A DNA stretch of 55,099 bases from the IMG/VR virus record IMGVR_UViG_3300005662_000026; one strand, 5' to 3'. The position numbers were made by a program, and so were the translations under genes. A model generated the notes under the pieces. It searched no databases. It worked only from the letters and a program-made list of their open reading frames with translations, and was not told the DNA's origin. The stretch comes from an uncultured virus (IMG/VR IMGVR_UViG_3300005662_000026) (lineage: Duplodnaviria; Heunggongvirae; Uroviricota; Caudoviricetes). This document shows, piece after piece, positions 3,272-52,505 of this stretch. The first letter of the stretch is position 1. Every line of letters starts with the position of its first letter.

Positions 3272-3313
3272 ACTTTTAATGTTTATAGAGTAAATCAAAA
3301 TTTATTATATTTA
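3269..3313 (+). promoter_or_regulatory. Conserved promoter-like motif TAAAC-N7-GTTTA-N20-TATATTTA (copy 1)
   Basis: Identical architecture and spacing at 8267-8311; resembles the Bacteroidota sigma70 TTTG-N19-21-TAnnTTTG consensus with terminal G>A in both boxes. Confidence 0.6.
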
Positions 3314-3331
3314 ATATATATTACATATTAT

Positions 3332-8269: not shown

Positions 8270-8311
8270 ACTTTTCAGGTTTAGTAAACTTATAAAATTT
8301 TAATATATTTA
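8267..8311 (+). promoter_or_regulatory. Conserved promoter-like motif TAAAC-N7-GTTTA-N20-TATATTTA (copy 2)
   Basis: TAAAC TTTTCAG GTTTA, exactly 20 nt, then TATATTTA, ending 23 nt before the ATG at 8335. Confidence 0.6.
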
Positions 8312-8334
8312 CAATATAGACAAACATTAATATT

Positions 8335-11300: not shown

Positions 11301-11517
11301 CTTTATTACACTTAGTAAAGATGATATAATGGGTGGTTATAAATATGATTTTGGTTATAAAGTATGGGATCCAATAAATAAAGTATACTCTGCTGCTGTA
11401 GTGCCAGGTAGAGGTGTTACAAGTGGTGCTGAATTAGAACAAAGAAGACAACAAGCTTTTTCTTATTGGCAACAAACTTTAGAAATTAATAATGAAAACT
11501 TTCAAAGCAATCAGTAA
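8335..11517 (+). CDS. Large virion (internal/ejection) protein
   Basis: 1060-aa ORF, no Cys seen, helical N-terminal half (YIPQFQPFQPD start); stop overlaps the next ATG (TAATG). Confidence 0.7.
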   Translation: MATYLQGVTDYIPQFQPFQPDLNFYANALQTKQTQYDSNYKALNNVYGQYFYADLTHGDNVKKKDELLKAIDFNLKRVSGLDLSLEQNVEQATQVFKPFYQDKHLMKDMAWTKNTNSERNYAAGLKNARDEKQRAQYWDAGIRAIDYKTEEFKNASLDETMNIGNVSYTPYVNVMEKAQKIAKDAGLSVETVNMSPDGKWIVKNKNGEQLIPQLSHLFEATLGADPAVMDVYSTQAYVNRKDYAYSNAAQFGGDQNAAEMKYLSESYNMLKAENEARQAELEKTNAVYNKKASKVEKAVAENKATPDTASYLERLNEARNINSKLLSSTQEHVSALSNDNGTATTSSGFENPYGDIESLRWKVDNAMASKLMQKDLYEAANVFAYKDAKQDMTANPYAVQAEAHAYRMQEQAFAAANREKLFKMKIANEMDKAAPAQEGYEWDKDPNSPTFGRAIPKEDGDEYFTETTAEGSSTDIVNLRDVSSSQTDRFIDKNVVPYLKNMLVTMQDLKGELDQDDMQTIFGDKNMTIEKFNSQLNSDPYKFIKGTLGISKLKKITSGFQKVIAQNYNVGNDAFTEAGNKMKGYTTSLDDFYRHANELEKWKTESRDIVLKHVEERVDNNLKGYVSKMFDANGRQLTKEEFVKKYPQGMEIGPFNRGEWIKIGGKDVYATSKNIDKLITQAGENELNNGTYTGESLIEYRNRDKDNNWLSFTRQTTDKSKLEPGKEYFKLDGKYVEITPSNRKWLVEKAGKQKLFNPFGQLPYVDTAKSSGAIYDKLKEAIHNGYTTAPIKNTPPGIEAIGDVKDSGLTNLRRQSIKVYTNIPESRGAANFNEIKRNINEIGFDNIDIAYEGPTKSSKTFNKNTGRAFIQAIFDEASKPKSILNGFKISAQAIAQNNANKGAIIIYPNAEFLKKYTYTIDSEGKKKGVGLISEDEANYVLNNGVSLVTDKKNWNNSLFESTYVTPLEASVNYSKEVKIQDPNDMSGMNFITLSKDDIMGGYKYDFGYKVWDPINKVYSAAVVPGRGVTSGAELEQRRQQAFSYWQQTLEINNENFQSNQ

Positions 11518-14500
11518 TGGAAAATAATAGCTCACTAGATCCACTAGGACCAGAATTTGGTAAAGTAAATGCACCAGCAATTAACTCTAAAAGTATGTCT
11601 GCATTTGAAGGAGATTTATTAAGAGATAATAAAATTAATTTCCGTCCAGTCACACCACCATTAAGTTCAACACATCCTAATTATGAAATACAGGATAGTA
11701 TTACAGGGCATGCACCAAGTATACCAAGTAGTAAAAATCCAAGAAAAAATGTTTCTGTTAAAGAAATTAAAGATGCAATTGGTAAAAGCTTTGTCATGCA
11801 AGCAGATGCAACACATGATAAAAGTCAATATGCTAGAGTAAATGCTTATAATGCTGGACCATCCGGTAACTCTTTTTATAAAAGATATGCAGCATATGGT
11901 CAAAAGAAATTTGATGAAGTTGGTTTTTCTCCATTAAGAAATAATGAGGCAATGTTTAATGCCAATACAACTATAGGGGATGACTTTACAAGAATGATGA
12001 AAAACTCATTTGTACCATTATTTACTAGAGGTTTTGTATCTGGCCCAAAGAGTTTAATTAAAATGATGCAAGGTGACTTCAGTCCAGATACTGAAGATGC
12101 AAGAGCATATGAGAATGCAGCAGCTATTGGACAATCATCTAGAAAAGGTTTTGGTGCATTCTTTAATAATACTGCAATGAGTTTTTCTTATACAGCAGGT
12201 ATTATAAGTGAAGCTATTCTTGAAGAAGCTGCAGGTGCACTTCTTTCACCATTAACAGGAGGTGGTTCATTCTTTGCTGCAACTGCTAATAATGCAAGAA
12301 AAATAGGTAAACTTGGTAGTGCTACTGATTTAGCAATGGATGGATATAAAGCTGTTAATACTACACTTAAAGAAGCTAATAGTATTGATGGTGCTAGAAG
12401 AATGTGGCAAGCAGCTGAAAATATTGGTAAAAATAAAGCTTTTAAATTTTTAAATCCACTTGAGAATACATTTGATGCTGCAGTTGGAATTGGTAAAAAT
12501 GCTGATAACTTAACAGGATTAGCAAGACTTGCACAAGGTACAAGTAAAACAGCTGGTGGATTATTTAGAGATATTAGAAACATAAATATGGCTTTAGCTG
12601 AAGCACGCCTTGAAGGAGGTATGACTCAGAATAAAATATATGATTCAGCATATGATGCATTCTATAAAAAAAATAATAGAGCCCCTACAAATGAAGAGCA
12701 ATATGAAATAACTAAGCTTGCAAAAGAAGCCGGTATGAATACATTAATGTGGAATACCGCAATCATCATGGCTAGTAACAAAGTTGTTTTGCCTAATTTA
12801 TTAAAATCAGGTGTATCTAAAAGTGCAATGAAATCTAAGATTGATGATGTACTTGCTATGAAAGGTGGTAAAATTACTTTTCAAAAAGGTGTAGCTGAAG
12901 AAGGTAAAAAAGTTGCTAAAGGTACATTTGAATTTGTTGAAGACTCATTTAAAAATTCATTAAAAGGATTTAAAGCTGCTCCAATAAAAACAACTGCTAA
13001 GATAGCTGGAAGATACTTGAAAGCTAACTTAATGGAAGGTGTTCAAGAAAACTTACAGGAAACAATATCATATGCAAATGAAAACTATTATTTAAATGCA
13101 TATAAGAATAAAGAACTAGGAGCCCATTTATATAATAGAGCACAAAGTTCTTTAAGGTATGAAGGATTCACAAACCAGTTTAGTGCACAAGGTTTTGAAA
13201 CTTTTGCTTCTGGTGCTTTAATGGGGTTATTCTCCGGAGGTTTAGGAGCAGTAAAATCAGGTATAGACTTTGCCTACAATAAAACATTAAATAAAGAACA
13301 GTATAATAAATATAAAGAGTTAAGAAAAACTCATGGAGAATCTGTAGCAAAAAGACTAACAGACTTGTATGCAGATCCTAAAGAGTTCTTTAACTCAAGA
13401 ATATTTAATTATGGTGTACAAAATAATGCAGTAGCAGATAGTGAAGATGCTGATACTAAACTAGCAAAGGATATTAAAAGAGAAGCATTTGCATCTCAAG
13501 TATATACTGCACTAGATACAAATACTATTAACTACTTTAAAGACCACATTGCATCATTTAAAACTACAACTCCAGAAGAGTTTGAAGAAGCATTTGGATT
13601 TGAACAGGGTACAGGAGCTAAAGAACAGATGAGAATTGATTCTATATTAGATAATATAGAGACAATGCAAAAATCATATGACTATGCTAAAAACAGATTC
13701 CCTAATCCAGTTGATTCAAGTCAGTATGAACAAGGTACTCCAGAATATGAGAGTGCTGCTTTATTTGAAAGAGCATGGGATAATGGTGTTAAAAACTATG
13801 TATTTAATAATGATGCATTCATAGATACAACAAAAAGAATGTCATCTATTATTGGCAGCTTTATTGAAAATCCATCAATGCAAAACATGTCTCAAACAGA
13901 TGTGAACTTAATATTTAAACCTAACAATATTGCTAAGGAAAAAATATTACTTAAAAATGAAATTGCTGGTTTAAAAGAGTCTAATGACCCTACATTAAAG
14001 GACCAGATTAGAATTAAAGAAAACAAGTTAAATGCATTAGAAAAATTCTCTGATGCATACTTTAAACGTGATGCATATAAAAATAGAACTAATGCTAATG
14101 CTATATTAGAAGCTTATAAAAAAGAACAAGATATCAGTGAGTTATCTGAAGCTGAGAAAGAAGAAATATTAAACATTGCATTTGGTGAAAAAAATGCAGA
14201 GAATGATTATAAGAACAGAGCTGAATTAGAACTTGCATATAAAGATTTTTTAAAAGCCTCTAATGACATTGATGGTGCTTATATATTTGATACTGATGCA
14301 GATAAAGGGTTTGAAGAATTACTTGATTACTATAATCTAGATGCAGAGTCTAAACAATTAGTTACATATATTAATTTATTACATAGTCCTCAAGGATTCA
14401 TGGAACAGGTTGAGAAATCTCAAACTTGGATGAGTGATATGTATAATAACAGACATCAGTACTATACTGATATGGTTAATAAATACATGTCAGGTGTAGA

Positions 14501-17500
14501 GAATAATGAAGCATTAAATGCATTAGCAGATATGAATGTATTCATAGATTTAGATGCATTCCAAGCATACATGAATGATGATATCTTACCTGATGAATTT
14601 ATTGATGAAACTACTAAACAAGTAATACCAAAAGGTACTCAGAGATACAATGAGCTTTTAAATATTCTATTTATTAATAAAACAATAAAAGCTGAAGATG
14701 CAATTGCTCCATCTATGGACCAGAATCTACAGACTAAGCTTGATACTCTTGATGACCAAGAGCAAAAAGCAATAGAAGCATTACCTAAGATTGAATCAAT
14801 TACTACTGTTAAACGTGTTGTAGCTAAAGACAAACCTTTAACTCTAAAAGATATATACCAAGATATTGATGATAGTCAATATGTAGATGCTATATATGAA
14901 GGTAGTGATCAAAAGATTACATTGTATTTATCATTTGAAGGTACATTAAAATTAAATGATGCTTCAGGTGAAGTTGTTAATCATGAGACAGTTAAAGATA
15001 AGTTTTCTGAATATACTATTTATAAGAAATCTATGGTACCGGATCCTGAGTCTGTTAAAGATATTAAGGATAAGTATGATAATCTTAGAGAAGAGGCAGC
15101 AGAAAACTTTGCTCAGAAAAAAGCAAAAACAAAAGCTGATGTATATTCTAATTATACTCCAGTAGATGAGTTACCACAAGATTTATACAAAGAGTTACAA
15201 GAAACATTTCAACAAACTGATATTGCTATACAGGCTGATGAAGATGACACAAGTGATGAAGAGTTAATGGATTTATTTAAAGCATTTGTTAAAAATAATC
15301 CATTAGCTGAAGATGTTATTAATAATTATAACAACAAAAGTAAAGATGCTGCTGAGAAAGAAAAACTTGGTGAGATAGATGACTTTGATTTTATATTAAA
15401 TAATAAAAAATTAAACACTACTAATTACTCTACTACTGATATAAAAGAGTTTAAGAAACAGTTTGAAACATTAAGAGATAATACTGATAAGACAATTGAA
15501 AAGACTGTGTATCAGGATATTATAAATAAATTTGACAGACTTATATCAACAAGAGAAGTAAAATCTTTTACACCAGAAGTACAAGAAATAATTAAAACCA
15601 TTAAAAATGAATTAACTGCTAAACAAAACAAGATTGAAAAAATTACTGATCTTGGTTATAAGGTAAATGGTCAGTTACTTGAAAGAGTAACAAACTTTAT
15701 CCAGCAGTTTAAAACTGATAAGTACAAATATTCAGGTGAAAAAATAATTAATAAAGCATTTGAAAATACAATTGCTGCTGCTGGTTTAAAAGACACAACT
15801 ATTAATTCATTTATTAAAGAATTAAGAAAAGGATTACATGTTGATTCTACTAATAAAAACTATGGATATACTGATGATACTGAAAACATCATTAAAAAAC
15901 ATTTAAAAGATATACTTGATAAAGGACTTGATAAAACTTTATATAAAGATAAACAAGAACTATTAGATAGTATTCAAGCAGTAATAAGTGAAAATGCATA
16001 TGAAGCATCTAGAGTAGCAGGTAATTATGTTGATGAACAGTTAAGAAGAATATTTACTAAAGGTGAAGCTCCAGTATTTGATGAAAAGAAAATAACTAAA
16101 GAAGCTTATGATAAATTATTTGGGCCAACTAGTTTTATTAAAGAAATCAAACAGAAAGTTGACTCTGGTGAGTTATATACATTAGCCACTGGGCTTAAAG
16201 TATATGACGTAGATGCTAATGTAGCTGGTGAGATGGATTTATTACTTATTGATAAAGCAGGTAAATTACATATCATAGATTTTAAAACAGGTACAGAATC
16301 TAAGTGGAATGGATTTGTAGATAAATCAGATTTTGGTTTAAGTAAACTTGAGGATTATACTTTACAGCAATATACTTATGCTAGGTTATTGAAAAAAATG
16401 ACTGGCTTAGATGCTGATATAAACATATTCCCAATAGAAACTAAACTTGATCAGAATAATAAATTAATAACAGATGCTAATGATCCTACTAATAAAAAAT
16501 TAACAGGAACAGGTAAATGGTATTTTTCATTAGACCCTAATTTTTCTGATGCTAAAGCTAAGATAGATAAAGCAATTCCTATTGAAGCACCAGGTATTAA
16601 AGTTGCAACATCTATTAATCCAGTTTATAAGAAACAACTTAAAAATATTGGGTACCCAGATGAGTTAATTAACACTTTTACTAAAGAAGAAGCAGCTAAG
16701 TATACTAAGATTCCATACAGTGAATATGTTAAATTAAACAGTGTATCATCATTTGAACCTACTATAGACGCTACAGACATAGAAAGAAGAAGACAAGAAG
16801 ATTTACAAAATGGGGAGTTATTTTTAATGAATGATGGTACTTATGGAGGTAGTAGAAATGTCTCATTAAACTTTTATTCTGATGTACAAATAAAGGAAGG
16901 AAATCCTGAAGGAGATATTAGAACATGGGATTATAAAAACTATGATGGTACAGGTATTTTTGTTAATAAAAAATTAGGTATTGCATATATAGTACCTAAT
17001 AATACTTTTTCTAAAACACCACAAGTATTTAAGGTGTTTATGGATAGAAATACATTTAAATTTGACTTAAATAATCCAAGGTTAATTAATAGACCAAATA
17101 TTGAGACTTCTGCAAAAGCATACAATGTAAGTGCAGATAATTATTATAATGAAGTTTTAAATGCTGTAACTAAATATGATGCAGAATTAGCTGCTATAGA
17201 AAAAACTACTGAAAATAAATCAGTTGTTGAACCAGTACTAGATACTACAGAAATAGAAAAAAGAAGAAATAAAGCATATAGCAATATACGTTTTAATTAT
17301 TCAACTGATAGTGGTTACTATGGAGTGTACACTAATGCAAAAGGTGAAGAAGAAGTAGTAGAAGGCTGGAATCAAAATAAAGTTAAAGAAAAGCTTAAAG
17401 AAAAATATGATGCAGAATTATCTACTGTTGGTACTACAGATGCTAAAGCTGATATAGAAAGAAAGCCTGATGAATCTGTAAAAGATTTTATAGAAAGGTT

Positions 17501-18443
17501 ATTTTCTAATAACTATCTTATAGAAGTAGATGGAAAACAAATATTCAGTTTAACACAAGGAAGATGGGGAGTTGTCGTTAATATAGATGGTATACAAGTA
17601 CCATTTTATCAATCTACTTCTGGTACAGATACTAAAGTTAAAGGTCAGTGGTATCCGTTTTTTGGAGATCAAGGTAATTGGGTTATAAAAGGAAACAGTG
17701 TTGATTCTGAATCAGGATATGGATTTAAACAAATTAATGCTGTTCAAAATTTTCTTAATAAAAATATTACAGAAACAGATGCAATTGCTTTAAGCAGTAT
17801 TATATCTAAAGAAGTTCTTCAGAATCAAAGTTCTTTGAGAGTACTAGATGAATCTAAAATAAAAGGTAATGAAAAAATATCTTTAAATAAAGAAGCAACT
17901 GCAAAAAGATTAGCAAATGTAGCAGGTTACTCACTTGAAGAAGGCAGAAAAACTAAATCAGATTTAGAATTATTTAATTTAGCATCTAAAAAAATATTTA
18001 CAGAACTAGCTACTTTAGAAAATAATGTTACAGCTACAAAAGCATCTGAACTTAATCTTCAAAAAGGTGATACAGTAATTGTTAAAGAACCAATAATGGA
18101 TAAAGATAAGGTGTTTGCTGATACAGGTAGTACATTAACTGTTTTGAAATCTGATGAAAAATCAGTATCTTTTACATACGGAAATGATGAAAAAACATTA
18201 ACTTTACCTGAAATGGATAAACACGTTACAACAATGGGAATTGAGGAAGTAAAACAAGCAGAAAAAACACAAGAGGTTTTGGATGCAATTGATAAACAGA
18301 CAGTTACAGAAACAATTAATGCATTAACTGATTTTATTGGTGACAAAAAAGCAATTGAAAATGCTATTAATAAAGCTTCATCTAATGATGTAACAGCTGA
18401 AGAACTTACAAATGATTTACTTGAAGATTTATCTTGTAAATAA
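11517..18443 (+). CDS. Giant virion ejection protein with PD-(D/E)xK nuclease domain and C-terminal variable cassettes
   Basis: 2308 aa; G/A-rich hydrophobic segments in the N-terminal quarter; AGEMDLLLID...IIDFKT...YTLQQYTY nuclease motif at ~16180-16400; single Cys at the penultimate residue. Confidence 0.75.
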   Translation: MENNSSLDPLGPEFGKVNAPAINSKSMSAFEGDLLRDNKINFRPVTPPLSSTHPNYEIQDSITGHAPSIPSSKNPRKNVSVKEIKDAIGKSFVMQADATHDKSQYARVNAYNAGPSGNSFYKRYAAYGQKKFDEVGFSPLRNNEAMFNANTTIGDDFTRMMKNSFVPLFTRGFVSGPKSLIKMMQGDFSPDTEDARAYENAAAIGQSSRKGFGAFFNNTAMSFSYTAGIISEAILEEAAGALLSPLTGGGSFFAATANNARKIGKLGSATDLAMDGYKAVNTTLKEANSIDGARRMWQAAENIGKNKAFKFLNPLENTFDAAVGIGKNADNLTGLARLAQGTSKTAGGLFRDIRNINMALAEARLEGGMTQNKIYDSAYDAFYKKNNRAPTNEEQYEITKLAKEAGMNTLMWNTAIIMASNKVVLPNLLKSGVSKSAMKSKIDDVLAMKGGKITFQKGVAEEGKKVAKGTFEFVEDSFKNSLKGFKAAPIKTTAKIAGRYLKANLMEGVQENLQETISYANENYYLNAYKNKELGAHLYNRAQSSLRYEGFTNQFSAQGFETFASGALMGLFSGGLGAVKSGIDFAYNKTLNKEQYNKYKELRKTHGESVAKRLTDLYADPKEFFNSRIFNYGVQNNAVADSEDADTKLAKDIKREAFASQVYTALDTNTINYFKDHIASFKTTTPEEFEEAFGFEQGTGAKEQMRIDSILDNIETMQKSYDYAKNRFPNPVDSSQYEQGTPEYESAALFERAWDNGVKNYVFNNDAFIDTTKRMSSIIGSFIENPSMQNMSQTDVNLIFKPNNIAKEKILLKNEIAGLKESNDPTLKDQIRIKENKLNALEKFSDAYFKRDAYKNRTNANAILEAYKKEQDISELSEAEKEEILNIAFGEKNAENDYKNRAELELAYKDFLKASNDIDGAYIFDTDADKGFEELLDYYNLDAESKQLVTYINLLHSPQGFMEQVEKSQTWMSDMYNNRHQYYTDMVNKYMSGVENNEALNALADMNVFIDLDAFQAYMNDDILPDEFIDETTKQVIPKGTQRYNELLNILFINKTIKAEDAIAPSMDQNLQTKLDTLDDQEQKAIEALPKIESITTVKRVVAKDKPLTLKDIYQDIDDSQYVDAIYEGSDQKITLYLSFEGTLKLNDASGEVVNHETVKDKFSEYTIYKKSMVPDPESVKDIKDKYDNLREEAAENFAQKKAKTKADVYSNYTPVDELPQDLYKELQETFQQTDIAIQADEDDTSDEELMDLFKAFVKNNPLAEDVINNYNNKSKDAAEKEKLGEIDDFDFILNNKKLNTTNYSTTDIKEFKKQFETLRDNTDKTIEKTVYQDIINKFDRLISTREVKSFTPEVQEIIKTIKNELTAKQNKIEKITDLGYKVNGQLLERVTNFIQQFKTDKYKYSGEKIINKAFENTIAAAGLKDTTINSFIKELRKGLHVDSTNKNYGYTDDTENIIKKHLKDILDKGLDKTLYKDKQELLDSIQAVISENAYEASRVAGNYVDEQLRRIFTKGEAPVFDEKKITKEAYDKLFGPTSFIKEIKQKVDSGELYTLATGLKVYDVDANVAGEMDLLLIDKAGKLHIIDFKTGTESKWNGFVDKSDFGLSKLEDYTLQQYTYARLLKKMTGLDADINIFPIETKLDQNNKLITDANDPTNKKLTGTGKWYFSLDPNFSDAKAKIDKAIPIEAPGIKVATSINPVYKKQLKNIGYPDELINTFTKEEAAKYTKIPYSEYVKLNSVSSFEPTIDATDIERRRQEDLQNGELFLMNDGTYGGSRNVSLNFYSDVQIKEGNPEGDIRTWDYKNYDGTGIFVNKKLGIAYIVPNNTFSKTPQVFKVFMDRNTFKFDLNNPRLINRPNIETSAKAYNVSADNYYNEVLNAVTKYDAELAAIEKTTENKSVVEPVLDTTEIEKRRNKAYSNIRFNYSTDSGYYGVYTNAKGEEEVVEGWNQNKVKEKLKEKYDAELSTVGTTDAKADIERKPDESVKDFIERLFSNNYLIEVDGKQIFSLTQGRWGVVVNIDGIQVPFYQSTSGTDTKVKGQWYPFFGDQGNWVIKGNSVDSESGYGFKQINAVQNFLNKNITETDAIALSSIISKEVLQNQSSLRVLDESKIKGNEKISLNKEATAKRLANVAGYSLEEGRKTKSDLELFNLASKKIFTELATLENNVTATKASELNLQKGDTVIVKEPIMDKDKVFADTGSTLTVLKSDEKSVSFTYGNDEKTLTLPEMDKHVTTMGIEEVKQAEKTQEVLDAIDKQTVTETINALTDFIGDKKAIENAINKASSNDVTAEELTNDLLEDLSCK
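16767..18020 (+). repeat. Three intragenic cassettes bounded by (D/E)IE(R/K)R... and ...KYDAEL/ELAxxE repeats
   Basis: DIERRRQEDL(16776)...KYDAELAAIE(17172); EIEKRRNKA(17250)...KYDAELSTVG(17403); DAKADIERK(17439)...FTELATLE(17997). The 18-nt aaatatgatgcagaatta occurs exactly at 17172 and 17403. Confidence 0.75.
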
Positions 18444-18454
18444 AATTATTAAAT

Positions 18455-24400: not shown

Positions 24401-27400
24401 GGTTTACAAAAGAAAATAAAATCAGATATTAAGTTTACACCTAATACTATATACTTATCATATCTTAAAAATGTTACATCTGTACCTACTAAGTACAAAG
24501 GTAAAACTGTATTCTCAACTCAGTTAAGAAAACTTATTCTTGAAGGTTTATATGAAAATGGAGAAATAGTAAATAAAGATTATGCTCCATATATTAAAGC
24601 ATATGAAGATGCTATTGCTAATTATACTGATTTACTTAAGAAAGAATTACTTGAAGAAATTGGATATGAGAAAGTTAATGGTAAATATGTAAGTGGTGAT
24701 ATTACTAAGTTCATGGATGTAGTTCAAAGAGAACTAGAAAGAAAAGAATTACCAGAACACTTAGTAAAATATATTCAGGTAGGTAAAGACAATAAAATAA
24801 CTAAAGACTTATCATTACACTTATTATCAGATGATATTGAGAAAATGCTTGTGGTTTTAGTTGAAAAAAGAATTGTTAAACAGAAAGTTAAAGGTGAGGC
24901 TTTAGTACAGGTAGCAAGTTCTATGTCTAATGGATTGTGGGATTCAGGTTTTAAATTTGATAAAGCAGAAACTAAAGACATAGAAAAATACTTAGGTAGT
25001 AATAACTTACCATTCTATCATCCTGAAGATATTAATCTTGATGATAAATATAACGGGTATACACAAGATAAACTTAAAGAAGCTCTTAAAAAATATACAG
25101 ATATACTAGCTGACCAAGCTAAATACTATACTGATACAAATAAGGAAAACTTAAGAGTTGAAATCAATTATTTAAATGATATAATTGCTGGTAAAACTCC
25201 AAAAGTAAAATCAGTTAGTGGTAAAACAGCTGCAATGAAAGTTGCTATTGCTTTACAAGGTGACTTTAATAATCTTTTAAAACTTAAAGACAATGACGGA
25301 GAAGTTATTGGTACAAGAGAAAGATTAAATGAGATGATTAAAGATGATAAGTGGTTGAATACAGGTAATAACCGTAAAGCTATCACTATGACAGCTGTAA
25401 GGATTCCGGTACAAGGATTAAACTCTATGGAGTTTATGGAAGTATATGAGTTCTTAGATCCATCTGCAGGTAATATTATTATACCCCCATCAGAGATTGT
25501 TGCTAAGTCAGGTGCGGATTATGACGTTGATAAGCTTACTACATTTATGCCTAATATAGATGCAAGAGGTCAATATGTTGAATCAGGTATGGATACTGAA
25601 ACATTAGATAGACTTATTGCTGCATCTAAAAAGAAAGGTGATAAAGCTGAAATGACAAGACTAATCAAGTTACAAAAAGCAGCTTTAGAAAATAAATTAA
25701 TTGATTCTATTAGAGGTATACTTGAGTTACCTAATAACTATGCTACATTAGTTAGACCTAATGATACATACCTGTTACAAGATATTGCGGATGAATTAGT
25801 TGATGACTCACCAGAGTATAAAGAGTTTAAAACAATTAGTCCAACAGATATATTTGAAGTAGGATATAACTTACACAAACATGAGGCAAACATGGTTGGT
25901 AAAGATGTATTAGGTATTATTGCTCTAGAGAATGCATTGCATCCATTATTTACATCATTAGGAGCTGCTTTACCTAAAACATATAAGCATCAAACATGGG
26001 ATGATAATAATAAAGTTTATAAAGAACTTGAGGATGTAGACTACAAAATGAGATTATTACTTGACCATAATAAAACTAAAGATGGTAGAATCTCATTATC
26101 AGGTATTAATAGTGTTGACGGTAAAGATAAGATTGCAGATTTATTTTCACACTTAATGAATGGTGCAGTTGACGTTGAGAAAGATGCATGGATATTCTTT
26201 ATTCAAGCTAATAAAGAAATTGTACCAGTATTACTTTCATTATTAAAAGCTGGTGTTCCTAAAAGAGAAGCTGTATACTTTGTGTCTCAACCATTAGTAA
26301 AAGAATATGCAAGACAACAAAGATTAGTTAAAAGTGCATATGCAGGTATTACAGAAAATGGAGTTGATAGTCCAAGTTTTATAAAATATAAAGCGTTACA
26401 AAATACATTAGCTCAAACTAGATTATCATCTGATACTAAACTTATTAAGGAAGCATCAAGATTAAAAATGTTTGAAGCTCTTAAAACAGCAACAGATAAA
26501 ATCACAGTTCAGTTTAGAAATGGTGATACTAAAGAAGGTTTACCTAAAAGTCTATTAGATGCAATTAATGCAGGACGTATTAAACAATCAGATATATTAT
26601 CTGTAAAATATACTGATCCTAAATATGTATTAGATGAAAATGGTAAACCTAAAGAAGATGCTTATGGTAATAAAAAAACAATACCATTATATACAGCAGT
26701 AAATAAAAATCACTTATTATCAAATGATAACTGGTATTATGTTACACAAGTAGCTACTGAAGGTATTAATCAGTTTACTGAAAATGAGTTATCTAAAAAT
26801 ATTAAGGATTATGATAAGTCTAGTCCTAATGCAATAGCTGCATTTTTACATTTCTTAGAATTTGAAAGAGAAATCAAAGGTATATCTAATTTAAAAAGAC
26901 AGGCTAACCCAGATACTAAAACATCAAAAACAATTCAAGAGATATTACAAAAAGTTGTATCACTAGAAGAAGCAGCTGACTCATCTAAAATAGAACCTGA
27001 ATTAGCTGAAAGATTATTAAAAGAATCTATATTAGGTACATTCTTTGACAAAGCTATTGTTAATGATGTTGTTGCTCCTTTATTTAATGTTACTAATAAT
27101 AAAACAGTATCTGATTTTATGTTAGATACAATAAAATCAAGAGGTGGTGATATTACATCTAAATTTGGACCAGGTAGAGATGGGGTACAAGCATTTATAT
27201 CTTCATATAAAAATGCTATTATAAACTATATTTATCAAAATAAATTATATGATGCAGTAAATAGTGAAGAAGGCTATCCAGGTATACCAGAATCATTTAA
27301 TAATCTTGATACAGAAGAATTTGTAGATAATTTTATGTTTACATTAAGTAAGCATAATAACCTAAAAGAAAGATTCCCAATATTAGAACAGTTAAGTGAT

Positions 27401-29500
27401 GTAACTATTAAAAATAAAAAGAAAGAAGGAAAGGAGGTTGTAACAGTAACTACTAAAACTATTACATTAAATAATAAGAGTGCTGTTAAAGGTGAATTAG
27501 CTGAAGCATACTATCAAAACTTAATAGATCTTGCTGATGATAATGTTATTAAAGTTAAAGACCCTGTAGAGAATCAAGTTATATCTGATACATTCAAAGT
27601 ATTACCACTTATGTCTATTTATCAAAATGGAGTTGGTAATACTAAGTATGGTTTAAGTTATGTACTTCCAGATGATGTATACTTCTCATTACTAGAACCA
27701 AGTTCAAGAGAGTTTTTAGAAAATAACTTAAATAATAAAACACTTACTGAGATTGCTAACTTATTATTTGCTAATGAGTTTGGCCAGAATAATTATTTAA
27801 AATCTAGTTATACCGGACCAAGAAAACAAAGCAGTAAAACAGATACTCAATATGACAGTGAAGAGAACTTACCATTAGGTAATGTAAGTGAGAATGAACA
27901 AACTATTACATTTGGTACTCAACCTTCTCAACAACAAACTGTTAGTACTAATGCATCTGAATATACTAATCATTCTGGTGGTGCTTATGGAGGTGATACT
28001 TTCTGGGACATGATAGGTAGAGAATTCGGTATCACTGATCAAAGACATTATAAAGATGCAGGTAATCCAAATTTATCTCAAAAACTTAGAAACGCAGGTG
28101 TTAAAGCTACAATTCTTACTAAAGAACAGATGGATAAAGCCCGTAATGAGGTAGAGAGATTGCTTGGAGAAAAATATCCAGATACATTACAAGGAAACTT
28201 ACAAGTAAGAAATTATTATCAAGTAGCTAATGCAGATGCTGTATTTGCTGTTGCTGAAATAAAACCTACTACAAAACCTGAAGTTATGGGTGGAACAAAT
28301 ACTGCTGTTCAATTAGGAATAAAAATGGGTAAACCAGTATATGTATTTGATTTAGATACAAAAAAATGGTATACACAAGATACAGAGTTTCTTAAAACTG
28401 GTTATGATAGTACTAAATATGAATGGAATTATAATGGTTGGAAAGAAATAAATACACCAACTCTTACTAAGAACTTTGCTGGTGTAGGTAGTAGAGATAT
28501 AGAAAATTATAATGTACAAAAAGATGGTAAATGGGTACCTAGAGCTCAATACAAAGGACCTGAAGTAGAAGCAGCTGCTAAACAAGCTATTAGAGATGTA
28601 TATACTAATACATTTAAAGCTACTCAACTATCTACTCAACCAGTAAGTGAAGTTAAAAAGAAAGAGATTTTTACAATTAATAAAGGTTTAGAGAAAAAAT
28701 CATTTAGAAATAAACCATTAAACTTTGTAGATAAAATTACAACTAATAAAGATGCTGTTGTTGCTATGAGTAATAATAGAACTACAGGAGTAATAAGCAT
28801 TGATGCAAAAGCAATGCAACAAAAATTTAATGATAAATCATGGACTAAACCAACTAAACAATTAGATGGAAGTTATGCAACACCTTTAGCTGAAAATGAG
28901 TTCAATACTGTTGATGAGTGGTTTACATTTGCTTTAATACATGAAGTTAAACATGATACTATCTTTAAACAAGAAGGTGAGACAACTGGTCAGTATGAAG
29001 ATAGAATAAATCAAGCAGCACTTGAAGATTTAAGAAAAAACTATAATGTTAAAGAAGTAAGTAAAAGTGAATCAGATATTACTGAAGAACCAGAGATAGA
29101 CAAAAATATGAAAGCATTCAATGCTGAAGTAGCAAAACTAGGTAGAATGCCTAAAGAGTTTATTGTTGGTCCAAGTAAATGGGTATTGAATAATATGAAC
29201 TTATATGATTTAGTTGATAAAACTACAGGTTCAATATTCATGAAAAACATGAATATGTTTACTGGTAAGATTGTAGAAGAAACTGCATTAGACACACCTG
29301 TTAATCAAAAACAATTATATAACTTTACAAAACAAGTTATAAATGGTGTTAAAGAATACAAATTAGATAACATATTAGCCCTTAAAGGTATTGATATTAA
29401 AGATGTATTTGGTGCAATAAATAAACTTACAACTGATCCTCAGTCAACTCAGCGTCAGTTAAACAATTTAATAAATAAAATACTTAAAGCAATATGTTAA
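18455..29500 (+). CDS. Virion-packaged crAss-like DNA-dependent RNA polymerase (single-chain, double-psi beta-barrel type) with zincin and SLOG accessory domains
   Basis: 3681 aa; RIPVQGLNSM followed by KSGADYDVDKL (DxDxD metal motif, ~25505-25537) as in crAss-like virion RNAPs; HEAWH at 20939; SLOG-like motifs at 27960-28620; HEVKH at 28940. Confidence 0.88.
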   Translation: MNITCALTTKQIEKLFAKIYRDLFDSLNNNQEINAVSYMNDLFNTIESKSDVDTAAKFLQNVPSLMHTAIGDYSLANLNINEASIRPLIGKFLNPENGLLETLKYFRPETSVKDLKNAVIAQGVNTNTPSYSEEETEGDTGRYKPSSAFTSTMQQFVSINPNKKGKLFVEEIDQNRVRIYNTLEKIKLEINGKTNKITGPTYQGRTLNLKAIPLSKFANKDKTTADLYAKGNAISAKGIGPNLTSDIIVLVVSDQQGNIINFSKDGDILSKEEGGLPVYQFLRNATYNSQTDEYEVKDIYGIESKIQSVEDMLTNYASKLDMTLDEFKADLKAKGESYDELYKMFYDEQQAQFKALFDLKNEILTDKKNEKLLDIMSISNGIPDFYDARNLELSEFLELSDKIDINYSFTTVKEKRDGFEEGTTVININGQEFMVDRKNMPKYLIEKIASVLSNPTINAFEKYNFYEQFSNDKINKSRKKLFVSYNKERQELILEYKTDAKNPKKFTVGLSNPAKAKEIIIQALSNESGTYNANMKNNADLWNNVEFTDYVDGKLVTGDYREFLKQINPNIIFTPNADTSAFNSYFAFRVNEKLSAELKKAKQQVQEQTFTDPRSAIRQAKDELVDKLKQNPSLPGVIVGSFNATTFSLTAGDKYINARFEEGVSVKNLPKDDITVSFIVSDVIEDNKLFKDVISIYDSKGKKIGQVAETDYAAEEKPRTPEIIKEEATKADNEYTEPKGTESPAGKTRFYAMFNRSAELPSNVTREEVDAAQEWWNNSPLSKFIELEHMANIVNSDVYARFIIAGKRLQDTKIQLDTATGGSAVDLYHEAWHAFSQLYLTKKQKTKLYAETRKRLNNYDLSPLEVEEIIAEEYRTYAKDPKAVGDAPVRNTIFRRIWNFIKTLFGKRSTQEDLFERLFFASKNPKLLNKYTPLVDNAMFNVLNRDRGVMDVESNELALSFQDSMTVSSQIDSALSQLIDEVYNDRVAAEKEGLITKATRSGTIKLLTDDTNKAVAYNVIKGRFEEKLNYFKAQLEAADEDDFNKVTSLKDKVRILEATIKNWGDAKTGVIKFHIDNSTFDLIKQKYIEIESDDEVSEDDDNSAPENAEESEKFSDKKVGEKSLLQLAEKETLYILKSLFKLSDNNKQVIGKLGFPELADFSKTWNIVTKVIGGEKDPVKMYQKLNAATVAFPELKQLVANKIPDPTNINDLEEFNIKAAFWQDFKKTKLKYIQLTIDDSDGNGYSSEVTDASIEFKNIVDKFSSNFKASQKTNYINKTADNKSILNLDKLVEDFDRKSFSSEVAIPFANALGIGLQDLALLKRELNNRQEYYGLPSLFNIVKELHKISKDENASTEHKNFVKKFKSNPVGALYGDIPAGIYKETTSEKNIIKRLAELQSTYGTNYSSFSVLNPEKNLVNEFIEDNTVSLVVDAINNVTNGKDLWNGDSYQYMSYLNPNINSFTLESQILKNIFFNDGVTLNARKGDSKIELSMVAGTQIVSDNTGANTTSLDVQSKYIQELNMMLKSGITEFMRHASKSSSFGMKVSNGISGGLKKKKSNLYVDIEMFGPNGNGYDYAIDNIFIGYIQAELKRIQTFKANIDLFKNYKGYNRNVGTKENPIYAGEVFTAFDKILSKDTKDQLIDEVKDGDLRDYLNKNPQVKAIIANQITEYFNGQSIKNYEKFSESPFYDPALMNKLNVFSTLEDSDKHELLVKAYTMNSWIHNFETANLIYGDTTQYNHAKQEMHKRNTGSTSGGRGFMDDVYTQNFLQSDLIKKSSYGYKLAKDSNFGEKYNKFNYTNTFNTAIMQDVERDSIYIKNIEKALRDDYKKSKLSQAEIDYRLKKELKKYTKMEEGDGQGFITIDAYRNLRLAENNWGAEQEKLFQDVINDRPIKAENVVRFFPVYKLQHFGHLANTALPVNAMHKFALMPLIPSVIKGSDLESLHHQMMKSNIQYATFQTGSKVGSITSDGKADQIYDDKGLQKKIKSDIKFTPNTIYLSYLKNVTSVPTKYKGKTVFSTQLRKLILEGLYENGEIVNKDYAPYIKAYEDAIANYTDLLKKELLEEIGYEKVNGKYVSGDITKFMDVVQRELERKELPEHLVKYIQVGKDNKITKDLSLHLLSDDIEKMLVVLVEKRIVKQKVKGEALVQVASSMSNGLWDSGFKFDKAETKDIEKYLGSNNLPFYHPEDINLDDKYNGYTQDKLKEALKKYTDILADQAKYYTDTNKENLRVEINYLNDIIAGKTPKVKSVSGKTAAMKVAIALQGDFNNLLKLKDNDGEVIGTRERLNEMIKDDKWLNTGNNRKAITMTAVRIPVQGLNSMEFMEVYEFLDPSAGNIIIPPSEIVAKSGADYDVDKLTTFMPNIDARGQYVESGMDTETLDRLIAASKKKGDKAEMTRLIKLQKAALENKLIDSIRGILELPNNYATLVRPNDTYLLQDIADELVDDSPEYKEFKTISPTDIFEVGYNLHKHEANMVGKDVLGIIALENALHPLFTSLGAALPKTYKHQTWDDNNKVYKELEDVDYKMRLLLDHNKTKDGRISLSGINSVDGKDKIADLFSHLMNGAVDVEKDAWIFFIQANKEIVPVLLSLLKAGVPKREAVYFVSQPLVKEYARQQRLVKSAYAGITENGVDSPSFIKYKALQNTLAQTRLSSDTKLIKEASRLKMFEALKTATDKITVQFRNGDTKEGLPKSLLDAINAGRIKQSDILSVKYTDPKYVLDENGKPKEDAYGNKKTIPLYTAVNKNHLLSNDNWYYVTQVATEGINQFTENELSKNIKDYDKSSPNAIAAFLHFLEFEREIKGISNLKRQANPDTKTSKTIQEILQKVVSLEEAADSSKIEPELAERLLKESILGTFFDKAIVNDVVAPLFNVTNNKTVSDFMLDTIKSRGGDITSKFGPGRDGVQAFISSYKNAIINYIYQNKLYDAVNSEEGYPGIPESFNNLDTEEFVDNFMFTLSKHNNLKERFPILEQLSDVTIKNKKKEGKEVVTVTTKTITLNNKSAVKGELAEAYYQNLIDLADDNVIKVKDPVENQVISDTFKVLPLMSIYQNGVGNTKYGLSYVLPDDVYFSLLEPSSREFLENNLNNKTLTEIANLLFANEFGQNNYLKSSYTGPRKQSSKTDTQYDSEENLPLGNVSENEQTITFGTQPSQQQTVSTNASEYTNHSGGAYGGDTFWDMIGREFGITDQRHYKDAGNPNLSQKLRNAGVKATILTKEQMDKARNEVERLLGEKYPDTLQGNLQVRNYYQVANADAVFAVAEIKPTTKPEVMGGTNTAVQLGIKMGKPVYVFDLDTKKWYTQDTEFLKTGYDSTKYEWNYNGWKEINTPTLTKNFAGVGSRDIENYNVQKDGKWVPRAQYKGPEVEAAAKQAIRDVYTNTFKATQLSTQPVSEVKKKEIFTINKGLEKKSFRNKPLNFVDKITTNKDAVVAMSNNRTTGVISIDAKAMQQKFNDKSWTKPTKQLDGSYATPLAENEFNTVDEWFTFALIHEVKHDTIFKQEGETTGQYEDRINQAALEDLRKNYNVKEVSKSESDITEEPEIDKNMKAFNAEVAKLGRMPKEFIVGPSKWVLNNMNLYDLVDKTTGSIFMKNMNMFTGKIVEETALDTPVNQKQLYNFTKQVINGVKEYKLDNILALKGIDIKDVFGAINKLTTDPQSTQRQLNNLINKILKAIC

Positions 29501-32500
29501 AGTGCCCAATTAAAACTAGTCAGGAGTATCAAGATATTCTTAAAGAAGCTAATGGCAATGAAGAAAGAGCAAAAGAGCTCTGGGTTGAAAGAGGTTTTGA
29601 GGATAATGATGATTTAAATGAGTATGATATAGCTGATAAAGATTCACAAGAAGACCCAGAAGACAGTAGAGAGGATAAGTTATCCTCTTTAGTGGATAAA
29701 ATGCGTTTATATGTGAGTAAAGAAATCAAAATGATTGAGGGTAAAAAGTTCAAGAAACAAGAAAAAGTACTTGAAGAAAAGAAAAAATTACTTGATACAT
29801 TAAAAGCATTAGATGGTGTGGATTCTATTAACATGTTTGTTAAAGAAGCATTTAACAAATCAAAAAATGCATCACTAGCTTTTGAAGCAATATTACAAAA
29901 AGCAAGTACTGCAGATAGAAAAGAATTACTAGTTGAACTTGCTGCTATAAATGATTTTGCTAATGGTTACTCAATACTAGATGAGATAAGTAAACAAGAT
30001 GTTTATAATTATTTCTCATCTGAAGTAGATGAAAAAGATTCTGATTCAAATAAAACTGCTCAGGAGATGCTAACATATGCAATAACTGTAAAAAACAATA
30101 TTAAAAAGAAATATGTACAAGTTGGTATACCTTTAATGGCAGAATGGTTATTAGAGTACCAAGCAGAAGGTATAGAAGATAGAATACAACCACATATTGA
30201 GTCACTTAAACAAAGGTTAGCTACAGAGACAAAAGAAAAAGAAAAACTTAGAATACAGGAAGAGATAAATGTATGGACAAATTTTTCACTAGATAAAAAA
30301 TCTTTAGTAGAAATATTAACTAGAGCTACTAAAGATGAAGGTGTTATTGATTTTTTAATTAGTCCATTAATATCATCTAATGATGAGTCACTAGGTTTAT
30401 TTGCAGTTGCTGTAAAGACTGAAATGGAAATGGCTAGATTAGATGACATTAAAATTAAAAATATAGCAAGTGCAGAATTTGAAAAATATAAAACTACTGT
30501 ACCCGCAAGTCAAAATAATCCAGGTAAATTCAATGAAGGTATTTATGAGTTTTTAACTTTTACTAAAACTAAAAGTGATGGTACTGAAGAGACAATTAAA
30601 AAAGTAGCATTTGTACAGAAGCATGATATGAATAAATTCAATGCTGCTAAAAAACAAATGTATGCTTCACTTGCAGGAATGTCAGATGCACAACAAACTA
30701 AAACAAAAAATGAGTGGTACAGAAAAAATACTGTAGCTAAGACACAAGAAGAGATTGATAAAATATTTGCATCAAAACAAAAATTAAAAAATAAAGGTAT
30801 ACTTAGTCAAAATGACTATGAAGCATGGGTTGAAAGTGTACAAGTAACTAGTAAAGATGGTACTGTATATTATAAAGGTGAATTAAGTGAGCCATCAATA
30901 GATTATATAAACTCAAATTGGGAAGCATTATATGATAAGAATGATAAACCAAAAAATGCTAAAGGTGAATACCATCAATATTTAGTTAATCAGTATTTTG
31001 AAGCACAAGAAAAATTACCAGAGACTCAACAAAGAGGTTATCTACTTCCATCAATATATAAAACTGATTTTGAATATGCACAAACTAAAGGGATGAAAGC
31101 TTTAGTTAAACATAAGTTTAAAAGTGCTACATCTATTACTGCAGAAGATGTTGATTTTGGTATTGGTAGTTTATCAGAAGAAGGTGTTAAATTTTTACCA
31201 GTAGATTTTACAACTGATATGCCAGCAGAAGATGTTAGTTTAGATTTAGTAAGATCAGTATTAATGTTTAGTGCTATGTCTAATAGATATGAAGCATTAA
31301 ATAGAATTGGTAATGAAATAAACTTATTTAAAACTATTATTGGTGAAAGAGAAGTAATTGCTAATACATCAACTGGTAAACCTATTAGAGATGCTTTTGC
31401 TAAAAAAATAGGCTTTGATGAGTTCTTAAGAAAGAATGGTGAGAGTTATTCTAAAAAACATGTTGATGCATTTATTGACATGGTTGTATATAATGAAATG
31501 CAAAAAGCAGAAGAATTATTTGGTTTTTCTGCAGCAAAAATTACTAATACAATTACTGGATTCTCAGCTGTTACAACAATTGCAGCTGATGTATTAAAAG
31601 GTGTTGCTAATAACTTACAAGGTAATATACAATTAATTATTGAAGCTAGCTCAGGTGAATTCTTTTCTTCAAAAAATTATTTTAAAGGTAAAAAAGAATT
31701 TGCTGCAGTAGTTCCAAATATATTAGCAGACTTTGGTAAGTCAACACCAGAATCATTAACTGGTAAGTTAATAGAGGAATATGATCCAATGCAAGGTAAC
31801 TTTAAAGATGAATATGGTAAAAATGTATCTCAGACTGCTGCTAGAAAGTTAATGAGATCTAATACATTATTCTTTAACCAGCATTGGGGTGAGTATGAAA
31901 TACAAGTATCTGCAATGTTTGCATTAATGGATGCTACAAAAGTAAAAGATAATGCAACAGGTGAAGAAATAACTTTACATGAAGCTTATAAAAAATATGG
32001 TACTGATGGTATATTTGATAATACTGACTTTACATCTAAGAAAAGATTTGGCTTTCAAAATAAACTACATGCATTAAGTAAAAGATTACATGGTGTATAT
32101 AATGATTTTGATAAAGCTACAGTACAAAGATTTTCATTAGGTAGATTAGCTTTAATGTATAAAAAACATTTAGTACCTGGTTATAAAAGAAGATTTAAAA
32201 AAGTATCTATGGATCAAGAACTTGGTAGTCCAACAGAAGGTTACTATAGAACTTTTGCTTCAACTATGCTAAGAGATATTAAAAATATGAAATTTAATGT
32301 TGTAAAAAACTGGTCAACATATTCTACATTTGAAAAAGCACAGATAACAAGAACATTAACTGAGTTGTCAATTATACTTACATTAGCTGGTCTTGCTGCT
32401 ATATTAGCTTATGCATTTAGTGGAGATGATCCTGATGATGAAGCAATAAGAAAATCTTATGCATATAATTTTATAATGTATGAGTTAGTTAGAATGCGTA

Positions 32501-32766
32501 GTGAAACAGCAAGTTATATAAATCCTGGAGATGCAATGCGTGTAATAAAATCACCATCTGCTGTAACAGGTACACTAGAAAGAATAGTACGTGTAATTGC
32601 TCAAATAATGCCATGGAATATAACTGAAGAGTATAAAAGAGATACTGGTATATGGGAAAAAGGAGATAATAAAGCTTGGGCTTATTTCTTAAAACTAATG
32701 GGTTATTCAGGAAATAACATTGCTCCAGAAGAAGCAGTTAAAGGATTTGAAAGTTTATTAAGATAA
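29494..32766 (+). CDS. Large virion ejection protein with C-terminal hydrophobic helix
   Basis: 1090 aa, overlaps the RNAP stop by 7 nt; helical; LSIILTLAGLAAILAYAF is a putative TM segment; single Cys at residue 4. Confidence 0.7.
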   Translation: MLKCPIKTSQEYQDILKEANGNEERAKELWVERGFEDNDDLNEYDIADKDSQEDPEDSREDKLSSLVDKMRLYVSKEIKMIEGKKFKKQEKVLEEKKKLLDTLKALDGVDSINMFVKEAFNKSKNASLAFEAILQKASTADRKELLVELAAINDFANGYSILDEISKQDVYNYFSSEVDEKDSDSNKTAQEMLTYAITVKNNIKKKYVQVGIPLMAEWLLEYQAEGIEDRIQPHIESLKQRLATETKEKEKLRIQEEINVWTNFSLDKKSLVEILTRATKDEGVIDFLISPLISSNDESLGLFAVAVKTEMEMARLDDIKIKNIASAEFEKYKTTVPASQNNPGKFNEGIYEFLTFTKTKSDGTEETIKKVAFVQKHDMNKFNAAKKQMYASLAGMSDAQQTKTKNEWYRKNTVAKTQEEIDKIFASKQKLKNKGILSQNDYEAWVESVQVTSKDGTVYYKGELSEPSIDYINSNWEALYDKNDKPKNAKGEYHQYLVNQYFEAQEKLPETQQRGYLLPSIYKTDFEYAQTKGMKALVKHKFKSATSITAEDVDFGIGSLSEEGVKFLPVDFTTDMPAEDVSLDLVRSVLMFSAMSNRYEALNRIGNEINLFKTIIGEREVIANTSTGKPIRDAFAKKIGFDEFLRKNGESYSKKHVDAFIDMVVYNEMQKAEELFGFSAAKITNTITGFSAVTTIAADVLKGVANNLQGNIQLIIEASSGEFFSSKNYFKGKKEFAAVVPNILADFGKSTPESLTGKLIEEYDPMQGNFKDEYGKNVSQTAARKLMRSNTLFFNQHWGEYEIQVSAMFALMDATKVKDNATGEEITLHEAYKKYGTDGIFDNTDFTSKKRFGFQNKLHALSKRLHGVYNDFDKATVQRFSLGRLALMYKKHLVPGYKRRFKKVSMDQELGSPTEGYYRTFASTMLRDIKNMKFNVVKNWSTYSTFEKAQITRTLTELSIILTLAGLAAILAYAFSGDDPDDEAIRKSYAYNFIMYELVRMRSETASYINPGDAMRVIKSPSAVTGTLERIVRVIAQIMPWNITEEYKRDTGIWEKGDNKAWAYFLKLMGYSGNNIAPEEAVKGFESLLR

Positions 32767-45652: not shown

Positions 45653-46078
45653 TTATTTTATTTTATAGAATCTACCTAGTATGTTACCATTCAAGTATTC
45701 TTCTTTCTCAAGTACTTCATACATAAACTGGTGTTTAGTTTCTTGATAAGTAAGTTCCATTCCAGTATAACATATTCTAAGTATTTCTCTTTTAATTACT
45801 ATACCTGCTTTGTGAGCATCTTTAAGTATTTTATTACTACTGTAATATCTCATAAAGTCAGGTTTTAATTCCCTTGTGTATTTTTTTAATCTTTTATCAG
45901 TAGACATTGCTAATGCTTTCTTACCTAATGGTTTTTTAATATTGGCAAAGAAGTTCTTCTTACCAATATAAGCAACAGATTTACCATCTATAATAGCAGT
46001 CATAATGTAAATAAAGCCAACACCACCTTCAGGTATGTTACTCTCAGTAAATTCTTTACCTTTATATATCCAACTCAT
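45653..46078 (-). CDS. Stand-alone GIY-YIG nuclease (T4 endonuclease II/DenA-like)
   Basis: W.Y, GFIYIMT...YIGKK, YYSS, REIL..C, Y.E...QF...VL...YLNGNI. Confidence 0.7.
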   Translation of the reverse strand: MSWIYKGKEFTESNIPEGGVGFIYIMTAIIDGKSVAYIGKKNFFANIKKPLGKKALAMSTDKRLKKYTRELKPDFMRYYSSNKILKDAHKAGIVIKREILRICYTGMELTYQETKHQFMYEVLEKEEYLNGNILGRFYKIK

Positions 46079-52470: not shown

Positions 52471-52473
52471 ATA

Positions 52474-52505
52474 CAAATATATACTTTATTGTCCAATTAT
52501 GCAAA
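52474..52505 (-). promoter_or_regulatory. Bacteroidota sigma70-type promoter for the intron endonuclease
   Basis: TTTG-N20-TATATTTG, an exact match to the TTTG-N19-21-TAnnTTTG consensus, ending 3 nt before the ATG. Confidence 0.7.

What the first reader, a model, noticed from the sequence alone, without database searches (positions are those of the whole stretch)
11517..32766. Terminal-cysteine 'daisy chain': the only Cys in three giant virion proteins sit at facing ends of neighbours
Seen (manual scan of the translations): the 2308-aa protein has one Cys (...DLSCK, codon 18435). The 3681-aa RNAP has two (MNITC..., 18467; ...KAIC-stop, 29495). The 1090-aa protein has one (MLKC..., 29503). That is 4 Cys in about 7,080 residues, each within 5 residues of a terminus, and only at termini that face the adjacent gene product; the outer two termini have none. 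Known: ejected virion proteins such as N4 vRNAP lack Cys. Inference: C-end(n) to N-end(n+1) disulfides, or shared metal sites, link the proteins head-to-tail into a roughly 800-kDa chain. This could fix stoichiometry, allow ordered threading through the tail, and release the proteins in the reducing cytoplasm. I know of no description of such a system.
Basis: partly seen in the sequence, partly recalled or inferred. Interest (0 to 1): 0.9.

Follow-up and report, generated by a model that had tools for sequence, protein, structure and literature searches.

The report
Terminal cysteines chain crAss cargo proteins
Three giant proteins of this crAss-like phage, with its particle-borne RNA polymerase in the middle, have cysteines only at the ends that face the next protein, each inside a matched pair of end modules, which points to still untested disulfide links joining the proteins into one long thread.

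Summary
The genes encode crAss-like virion cargo, the middle one homologous to phi14:2 RNA polymerase gp66. The rule holds across relatives: 219 distinct Cys|Cys junctions and one one-sided case, a frameshift. A C-terminal module that is a free protein in 21 relatives always has Cys at both ends; in 29 fused forms no Cys is left at the seam. End sequences come in matched types (56 of 56 classifiable hold-out junctions agree), and one pair was swapped as a unit; linkage confounds this. Gene overlap and His-based zinc sites were tested and do not explain it. A published cryo-EM structure shows this signature as a real disulfide in cyanophage A4 (gp27 Cys1715-gp26 Cys5, PMC12002296), so the idea has a one-junction precedent. 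No crAss bond has been shown, and no complex model was obtained. Release in the cytoplasm is doubtful, as each junction appears fused in some relative. The scan noted this pattern before on other crAss-like DNA.

The parts
11517..18443 (+). P1, 2308 aa, first chain member; gp67/gp47-like by position only; PD-(D/E)XK nuclease-like stretch at residues 1497-1628
   Evidence: 116 of 120 listed homologues have Cys in the last 10 residues, 0 of 120 in the first 10
18327..18440 (+). P1 C-terminal tail (last ~38 aa, acidic) with the sole Cys, codon 18435
   Evidence: extent taken from the swapped tract between L095 and L097; mean net charge -3.9 before the Cys in 38 such junctions
18455..29500 (+). 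Virion RNA polymerase, 3681 aa, middle chain member; DYDVD motif at residue 2355; HExxH motifs at 829 and 3496; DprA/SLOG-like insert 3167-3315
   Evidence: profile match to phi14:2 gp66, probability 99.6, E 2.4e-24; motifs
18455..18739 (+). RNAP N-terminal module (residues 1-95): Cys5 (codon 18467) on a flexible arm before a helical domain
   Evidence: swapped tract; AlphaFold2 of residues 1-120, pLDDT 87.8, first helix 9-28
29084..29497 (+). RNAP C-terminal module (residues 3544-3681) ending in Cys3681 (codon 29495); a separate 240-780 aa protein carries it in many relatives
   Evidence: AlphaFold2 pLDDT 92.2, last helix ends at the Cys
29494..32766 (+). P3, 1090 aa, last chain member; homologue of phi14:2 gp65 and crAss001 gp49
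   Evidence: tblastn E 1e-34 and 2e-50
29494..29625 (+). P3 N-terminal tip (residues 1-44) with the sole Cys, codon 29503; start overlaps the RNAP stop by 7 bases
   Evidence: 120 of 120 listed homologues have Cys at position 3-6, 0 of 120 in the last 10; C4 invariant
8335..11517 (+). Cys-free 1060-aa probable cargo gene directly upstream; outside the chain, marks its start
   Evidence: its junction with P1 is none|none in every locus where it was seen

Best explanation
The three proteins are virion cargo that dock head to tail, P1 to RNAP to P3, through short matched end modules, and the one Cys on each side of a junction locks it as an inter-chain disulfide. The link stands in for a peptide bond, so separately encoded proteins behave as one polyprotein of about 7,080 residues. 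Shown: sequence pattern, pairing, gain and loss with gene fission and fusion, RNAP identity. From published work: relatives are virion proteins; the same signature is a disulfide in phage A4. Inferred: docking in the reducing cytoplasm during assembly, oxidation after lysis or in the periplasm, and a role in co-packaging the set and passing it through the tail in order while partly unfolded. Other Cys are purged so that no wrong bond forms.
For: 219 distinct Cys|Cys junctions against one one-sided case that is a frameshift. Free C-module proteins 21 of 21 with Cys at both ends; 0 of 29 fused forms with Cys in the last 800 aa before the tail. Chains of four or more linked proteins keep the rule (L006). 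phi14:2 has only these 4 Cys in gp67, gp66, gp65; crAss001 keeps them although gp47 is on the other strand. Tail type predicts tip type: Mantel r 0.78, null sd 0.019; 56 of 56 classifiable among 80 hold-out junctions. L095 and L097 are near-identical on both sides but differ in the last ~38 aa of P1 plus the first ~95 aa of RNAP. A4 gp27 (sole Cys 1715 of 1717) and gp26 (sole Cys 5) are disulfide-bonded in cryo-EM; 4 of 4 relatives fetched keep that pair.
Against: No bond, interface model or gel exists here for any crAss phage. Tail-tip matching is confounded by shared ancestry and physical linkage; in 15 junctions of distant named phages the types were mostly unassignable, and the one informative unlinked case (cr116_1) scored only 4.4 bits on the tail side. 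24 of 80 hold-out junctions could not be typed. Column covariation across the RNAP-P3 junction showed no signal. A4 gp26 shows no detectable homology to P3 (probability 3.4). Eleven gut, faecal or sewage phages tolerate internal Cys (55 in 65,598 aa) and mostly infect anaerobes (known hosts), where the oxidant is unclear. Two splits have an upstream terminal Cys with no partner: cr116_1 at an HNH insertion and IAS in an N-rich stretch.
Confidence: 0.72

Rival explanations
1. The disulfides form but only clamp the packed cargo inside the capsid, as in the A4 pre-ejectosome; the proteins separate before or during ejection and do not travel as one thread.
For: The A4 paper describes the bond as stabilising a helix inserted in a cleft of the packed ring. 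Nothing here tests ejection order.
Against: The junctions are apparently peptide bonds in some relatives, which suggests continuity is the conserved property; the A4 authors also propose a chain reaction on ejection.
Confidence: 0.13
2. The Cys bind a metal (zinc), two from one junction plus two from a symmetry-related junction, instead of forming a disulfide.
For: Works without an oxidant, which suits anaerobic hosts; several copies of each protein are thought to be packed.
Against: His lies within 6 residues of either Cys in only 5 of 219 junctions and a second Cys in none; the solved analogue is a disulfide. A four-chain site is not excluded.
Confidence: 0.07
3. The Cys pair in another topology: RNAP closes on itself or on its own copies, and P1 pairs with P3.
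For: The count of Cys allows it.
Against: The P1 tail and RNAP tip were swapped together; RNAP tail type follows the downstream gene across the RNAP tree; two-gene phages keep only the pair at the remaining gap; both termini are unmodelled in the gp66 crystal (weak).
Confidence: 0.03
4. The terminal Cys are tags for another chemistry (lipidation, thioester-driven ligation or splicing).
For: Cys close to a terminus is typical of such reactions (recalled).
Against: The N-side Cys is never residue 2 and ranges over 3-8; 0-9 residues follow the C-side Cys; no signal peptide precedes it in the sequences seen; Pfam gave no intein domain; tags need not come in facing pairs.
Confidence: 0.04
5. Chance or a by-product of gene overlap: an ATG overlapping the last codon forces TGY.
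For: At the RNAP-P3 junction the start does overlap the Cys codon (ATGTTAA).
Against: Only 32 of 139 junctions have that overlap; gaps run from -11 to +36; it cannot explain N-side Cys or genes on opposite strands.
Confidence: 0.01

Closest known systems
Cyanopodophage A4 (Anabaena phage A-4L, Saffermanviridae) pre-ejectosome, gp27 Cys1715-gp26 Cys5 disulfide (PMC12002296)
   Same: Adjacent ejection proteins, each with a sole Cys at the facing end, joined by a disulfide where the C-terminal helix of one inserts into the next.
   Different: One junction between two proteins, no virion RNA polymerase named, no detectable homology of gp26 to P3. Here two junctions, more in relatives, with several matched end types; the passages read do not note the sole-Cys signature or extend it to other phages.
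Crassvirales RNAP-associated cargo: phi14:2 gp67/gp66/gp65, crAss001 gp47/gp50/gp49
   Same: Homologous RNAP and P3, three-gene layout, same Cys pattern; virion location published.
   Different: Term searches of the gp66 preprint found no cysteine or disulfide; the disulfide passages shown from the crAss001 paper concern the tail. The window RNAP is larger, with inserted domains.
N4-like (Schitoviridae) virion RNA polymerase and ejection operon
   Same: Giant ejected proteins purged of Cys, linked to passage through the oxidising periplasm.
   Different: One polypeptide with a T7-type enzyme and no retained terminal Cys.
Docking domains of modular polyketide synthases and peptide synthetases (recalled, from no call)
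   Same: Short matched C- and N-terminal modules set the order of giant proteins that are fused or split among relatives.
   Different: Those are non-covalent and unrelated in context; no sequence or structure comparison was made.

Membership tests
crAss-like virion RNAP module (gp67/gp66/gp65) | Large protein homologous to phi14:2 gp66 with a DFDxD-type motif | tested here: met
   probability 99.6, E 2.4e-24; DYDVD at 2355, DFDVD in the family consensus
crAss-like virion RNAP module (gp67/gp66/gp65) | Downstream gp65/gp49 homologue | tested here: met
crAss-like virion RNAP module (gp67/gp66/gp65) | Upstream gp67/gp47 homologue | tested here: inconclusive
   a profile of the first 1000 aa of 30 P1 homologues hit only the Lbo-JY46 protein among 17 named phages; assigned by size and position
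crAss-like virion RNAP module (gp67/gp66/gp65) | Proteins are packed in the virion | not testable with these tools
   published for phi14:2 and crAss001
Order Crassvirales | Placement by capsid, terminase or portal markers | not tested
   those genes were not identified in the window and no whole genome is held
A4-type terminal disulfide between ejection proteins | Sole Cys at facing ends of successive cargo proteins | tested here: met
A4-type terminal disulfide between ejection proteins | Homology of the proteins to A4 gp27/gp26 | tested here: inconclusive
   P3 family against gp26: probability 3.4, E 0.013; gp27 was scored only against the P3 profile, no hit
A4-type terminal disulfide between ejection proteins | Observed S-S bond and helix-in-cleft interface | not testable with these tools
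   needs virion data; no complex model was obtained
Zinc site of Cys2His2 or CxxC type | Conserved His or second Cys near each terminal Cys | tested here: not met
   His in 5 of 219, second Cys in 0 of 219

The most novel reading that the evidence does not exclude
Crassvirales build a programmable injection thread: a set of mutually exclusive tail-tip modules, each locked by one disulfide, fixes the order and 1:1 ratio of two to five cargo proteins, lets phages split, fuse and exchange cargo genes freely, and makes each protein pull the next through the tail, so that the RNA polymerase arrives tethered to its partners.
Probability: 0.4. Interest if true: 0.9.

Novelty: new variant of a known kind. 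Interest (0 to 1): 0.78.

Why it matters
[quoted passage not shown] The pattern names four residues in cultured phages (phi14:2 gp67 C1797, gp66 C3 and C2179, gp65 C3) and turns the question into a non-reducing gel and a peptide map. It also suggests that gp66, so far studied alone and self-inhibited, is normally tied to two partners. The rule gives a quick way to read chain order and to spot wrong starts and frameshifts in these genomes, and matched covalent docking pairs could serve in protein assembly.

Tried and rejected
No model of a junction complex was obtained, so interface geometry and the Cys-Cys distance are untested. Sequence searches of the three proteins and of the RNAP profile against solved structures gave no match, not even gp66, which only profile-profile comparison reached. 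Fold searches of the two RNAP end modules gave no clear match (best E 0.14; best Z 5.7); this does not show new folds. Mutual information between the paired RNAP-P3 alignments (52 rows) gave no tail-tip enrichment, and its top pair lies in the gene overlap. Charge complementarity across junctions is weak (rho -0.17, p 0.048). Profiles of the optional junction modules found no relic in 29 fused RNAPs. No thiol-disulfide oxidoreductase turned up among the ORFs scanned; the rest of the genome was not available. Rfam: no match. Prokaryotic genome collection: one partial locus, not used. Gene-overlap artefact rejected. Polyvalent-protein literature search gave listings only, none read.
Full report
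Observation. The replication block of the same window has 1.06% Cys, so about 75 were expected; the placement of the four has a chance near 1e-11.

Identity. The 1090-aa protein (P3) matches phi14:2 gp65 and crAss001 gp49; 87 phage records hit, mostly crAss-like by name. A profile of 33 RNAP relatives aligns to phi14:2 gp66 over 989 columns at probability 99.6, with DYDVD at 2355. The 2308-aa protein (P1) is taken as gp67/gp47-like by size and position; homology to those was not detected. Published work places these proteins in virions and expects partial unfolding on exit.

Conservation. P3: 120 of 120 listed homologues (143 hits) have Cys at position 3-6, none in the last 10 residues, 15 other Cys in 135,686 residues. 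RNAP: of 120 listed (390 hits), 112 have Cys in the first 10 and 118 in the last 10 residues, 4 others in 433,851 (a few rows of that output were cut, the totals were not). Two of the 8 N-side misses have Cys at 12 behind an extra Met and six start 23-997 residues into their closest relative; one C-side miss is truncated and one diverges in its last residues. P1: of 120 listed (515 hits), 116 have Cys in the last 10 and none in the first 10; of 4 misses two look truncated, one has Cys 13 from the end, one is unexplained.

Junctions in context. In 133 viral loci (overlapping contigs included), 201 distinct plus-strand gene junctions gave 139 Cys|Cys, 61 none|none, all outside the chain, and 1 one-sided; that one is a frameshift in an A run behind an intact Cys-bearing start. 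In 68 further metagenome loci, 139 junctions not already in the Cys set gave 80 Cys|Cys, 0 one-sided and 59 none|none; two of the 59 lie inside an RNAP and are a frameshift and a single in-frame stop. These loci were found with the same queries and are relatives, not independent draws.

Fission and fusion. The last ~140 aa of the window RNAP form a module that always lies directly before a P3 with the window-type tip. Of 52 distinct carriers, 21 are free proteins of about 240-780 aa, all with exactly two Cys, one at each end; 29 are fused to RNAP with no Cys in the last 800 aa before the tail; 2 were incomplete. L006 shows three such junctions in a row downstream of the RNAP core. Among 17 named phages, 10 have three genes with the pattern, 2 appear to fuse P1 and RNAP and 5 RNAP and P3, judged by size, position and annotation; all keep Cys at the remaining gaps. 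Lbo-JY46 is the cleanest fused case, with two Cys in 4,300 aa. In gut phages with fusions internal Cys are common enough that loss at the seam cannot be read cleanly. In seven Steigviridae the first gene lies on the other strand, yet its last residues and the RNAP start keep their Cys. Exceptions: cr116_1, split by an HNH insertion, and IAS, split in an N-rich stretch, have a piece without N-terminal Cys.

Matched ends. Tail similarity tracks tip similarity (Mantel r 0.78, null maximum 0.07) and clusters map nearly one to one. Profiles from the first set typed 56 of 80 hold-out junctions on both sides with Cys masked; all 56 agreed. On a tree of 114 RNAP cores the downstream type changes about 20 times (rough labels, at least four wrong by eye; midpoint root), the window type occurs in at least five places, and the RNAP tail follows the downstream gene. 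L095 and L097 are 89-100% identical through most of RNAP but differ in the last ~38 aa of P1 and the first ~95 aa of RNAP, where L097 resembles the window; the RNAP part folds as a helical domain with Cys5 on an arm. Each junction seen within one genome uses a different type. All this fits cognate docking, but tail and tip are adjacent DNA and would travel together anyway; the unlinked test was weak and covariation gave nothing.

Chemistry. Overlap with the next ATG covers 32 of 139 cases. His or a second Cys is almost never near. Earlier notes of this scan pointed to cyanopodophage A4, and I checked it: the paper reports a disulfide between gp27 Cys1715 and gp26 Cys5, where the gp27 C-terminal helix inserts into gp26. 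These are the only Cys of both proteins, and 4 of 4 relatives fetched, out of 18 other records hit, keep the pair. So this signature has been seen once as a real bond, in proteins without detectable homology to P3.

Mechanism. Most likely the ends dock non-covalently during assembly and oxidise later, making a chain that replaces a polyprotein. Purging other Cys, as in N4-like ejection proteins, would prevent wrong bonds. Because the junctions appear fused in some relatives, reductive release is not required unless those polyproteins are cut, as the gp66 preprint supposes. Whether the chain is pulled through the tail or only clamps packed cargo is open.

Literature. Seen: PMC12002296 (passages, section 8), PMC10172136 (passages, section 10), PMC11445570 and PMC13434306 (passages), bioRxiv 10.1101/2020.03.07.982082 (passages). 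Ten searches listed no paper on terminal Cys or cargo disulfides in crAss-like phages. The library lacks most subscription papers; no supplements were read, and those of the A4 and crAss001 papers could bear on this. The docking-domain analogy is recalled.

Verdict. Real, order-wide as far as sampled, and cheap to test in cultured phages. It is a new variant of a link solved once in A4, extended to multi-junction chains with matched modules.

Noticed in passing
window 410-3271 (domain within 1700-2299): Cys-free 953-aa protein carries an ADP-ribosyltransferase domain (PF03496, E 1.2e-5, above the curated cut-off); probably a phage cargo acting on the bacterial host.
   Followed up: partly
window 5615-8269: The 884-aa protein has four internal Cys (114, 124, 305, 310), unlike its Cys-free neighbours; possibly two intra-chain disulfides.
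   Followed up: no
window 3267-3320 and 8265-8318: A 54-base AT-rich intergenic sequence recurs (74% identical) before the 757-aa and 1060-aa genes; possible phage promoter.
   Followed up: no
P0121-P0240: RNAP homologues range from 2,964 to 5,105 aa and carry varying inserted domains (PF13532, PF08719, PF18760, PF12694, PF13604 and others), mostly in the variable C-terminal part by inference.
   Followed up: no
L094, L095, L097: P1 is mosaic: L094 and L097 share the N-terminal half at 93-100% while L095 is window-like there, showing frequent recombination within the cargo genes.
   Followed up: partly
L001, L003, L008, L009, L011, L013, L014, L017, L150, L152, L153: Gut, faecal and sewage phages have about 0.84 internal Cys per 1000 aa in these proteins against about 0.01 in the window's RNAP and P1 relatives; purging may be relaxed in anaerobic hosts.
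   Followed up: partly
L153:4170-21314: cr113_1 reads through TAG, and its RNAP-P3 junction resembles the window's (tip 21 bits to the same type).
   Followed up: partly
window 41420-42169, 45653-46078, 51811-52476: Homing-type endonucleases (two GIY-YIG, one LAGLIDADG); the first separates two pieces of what may be one AAA ATPase gene, suggesting an intron that Rfam did not detect.
   Followed up: no
L122:339-980, L129:510-1145: A ~212-aa Cys-bearing gene just before the 1,000-aa cargo gene starts with the same first residues as that gene; possible mobile endonuclease that copied the start.
   Followed up: no
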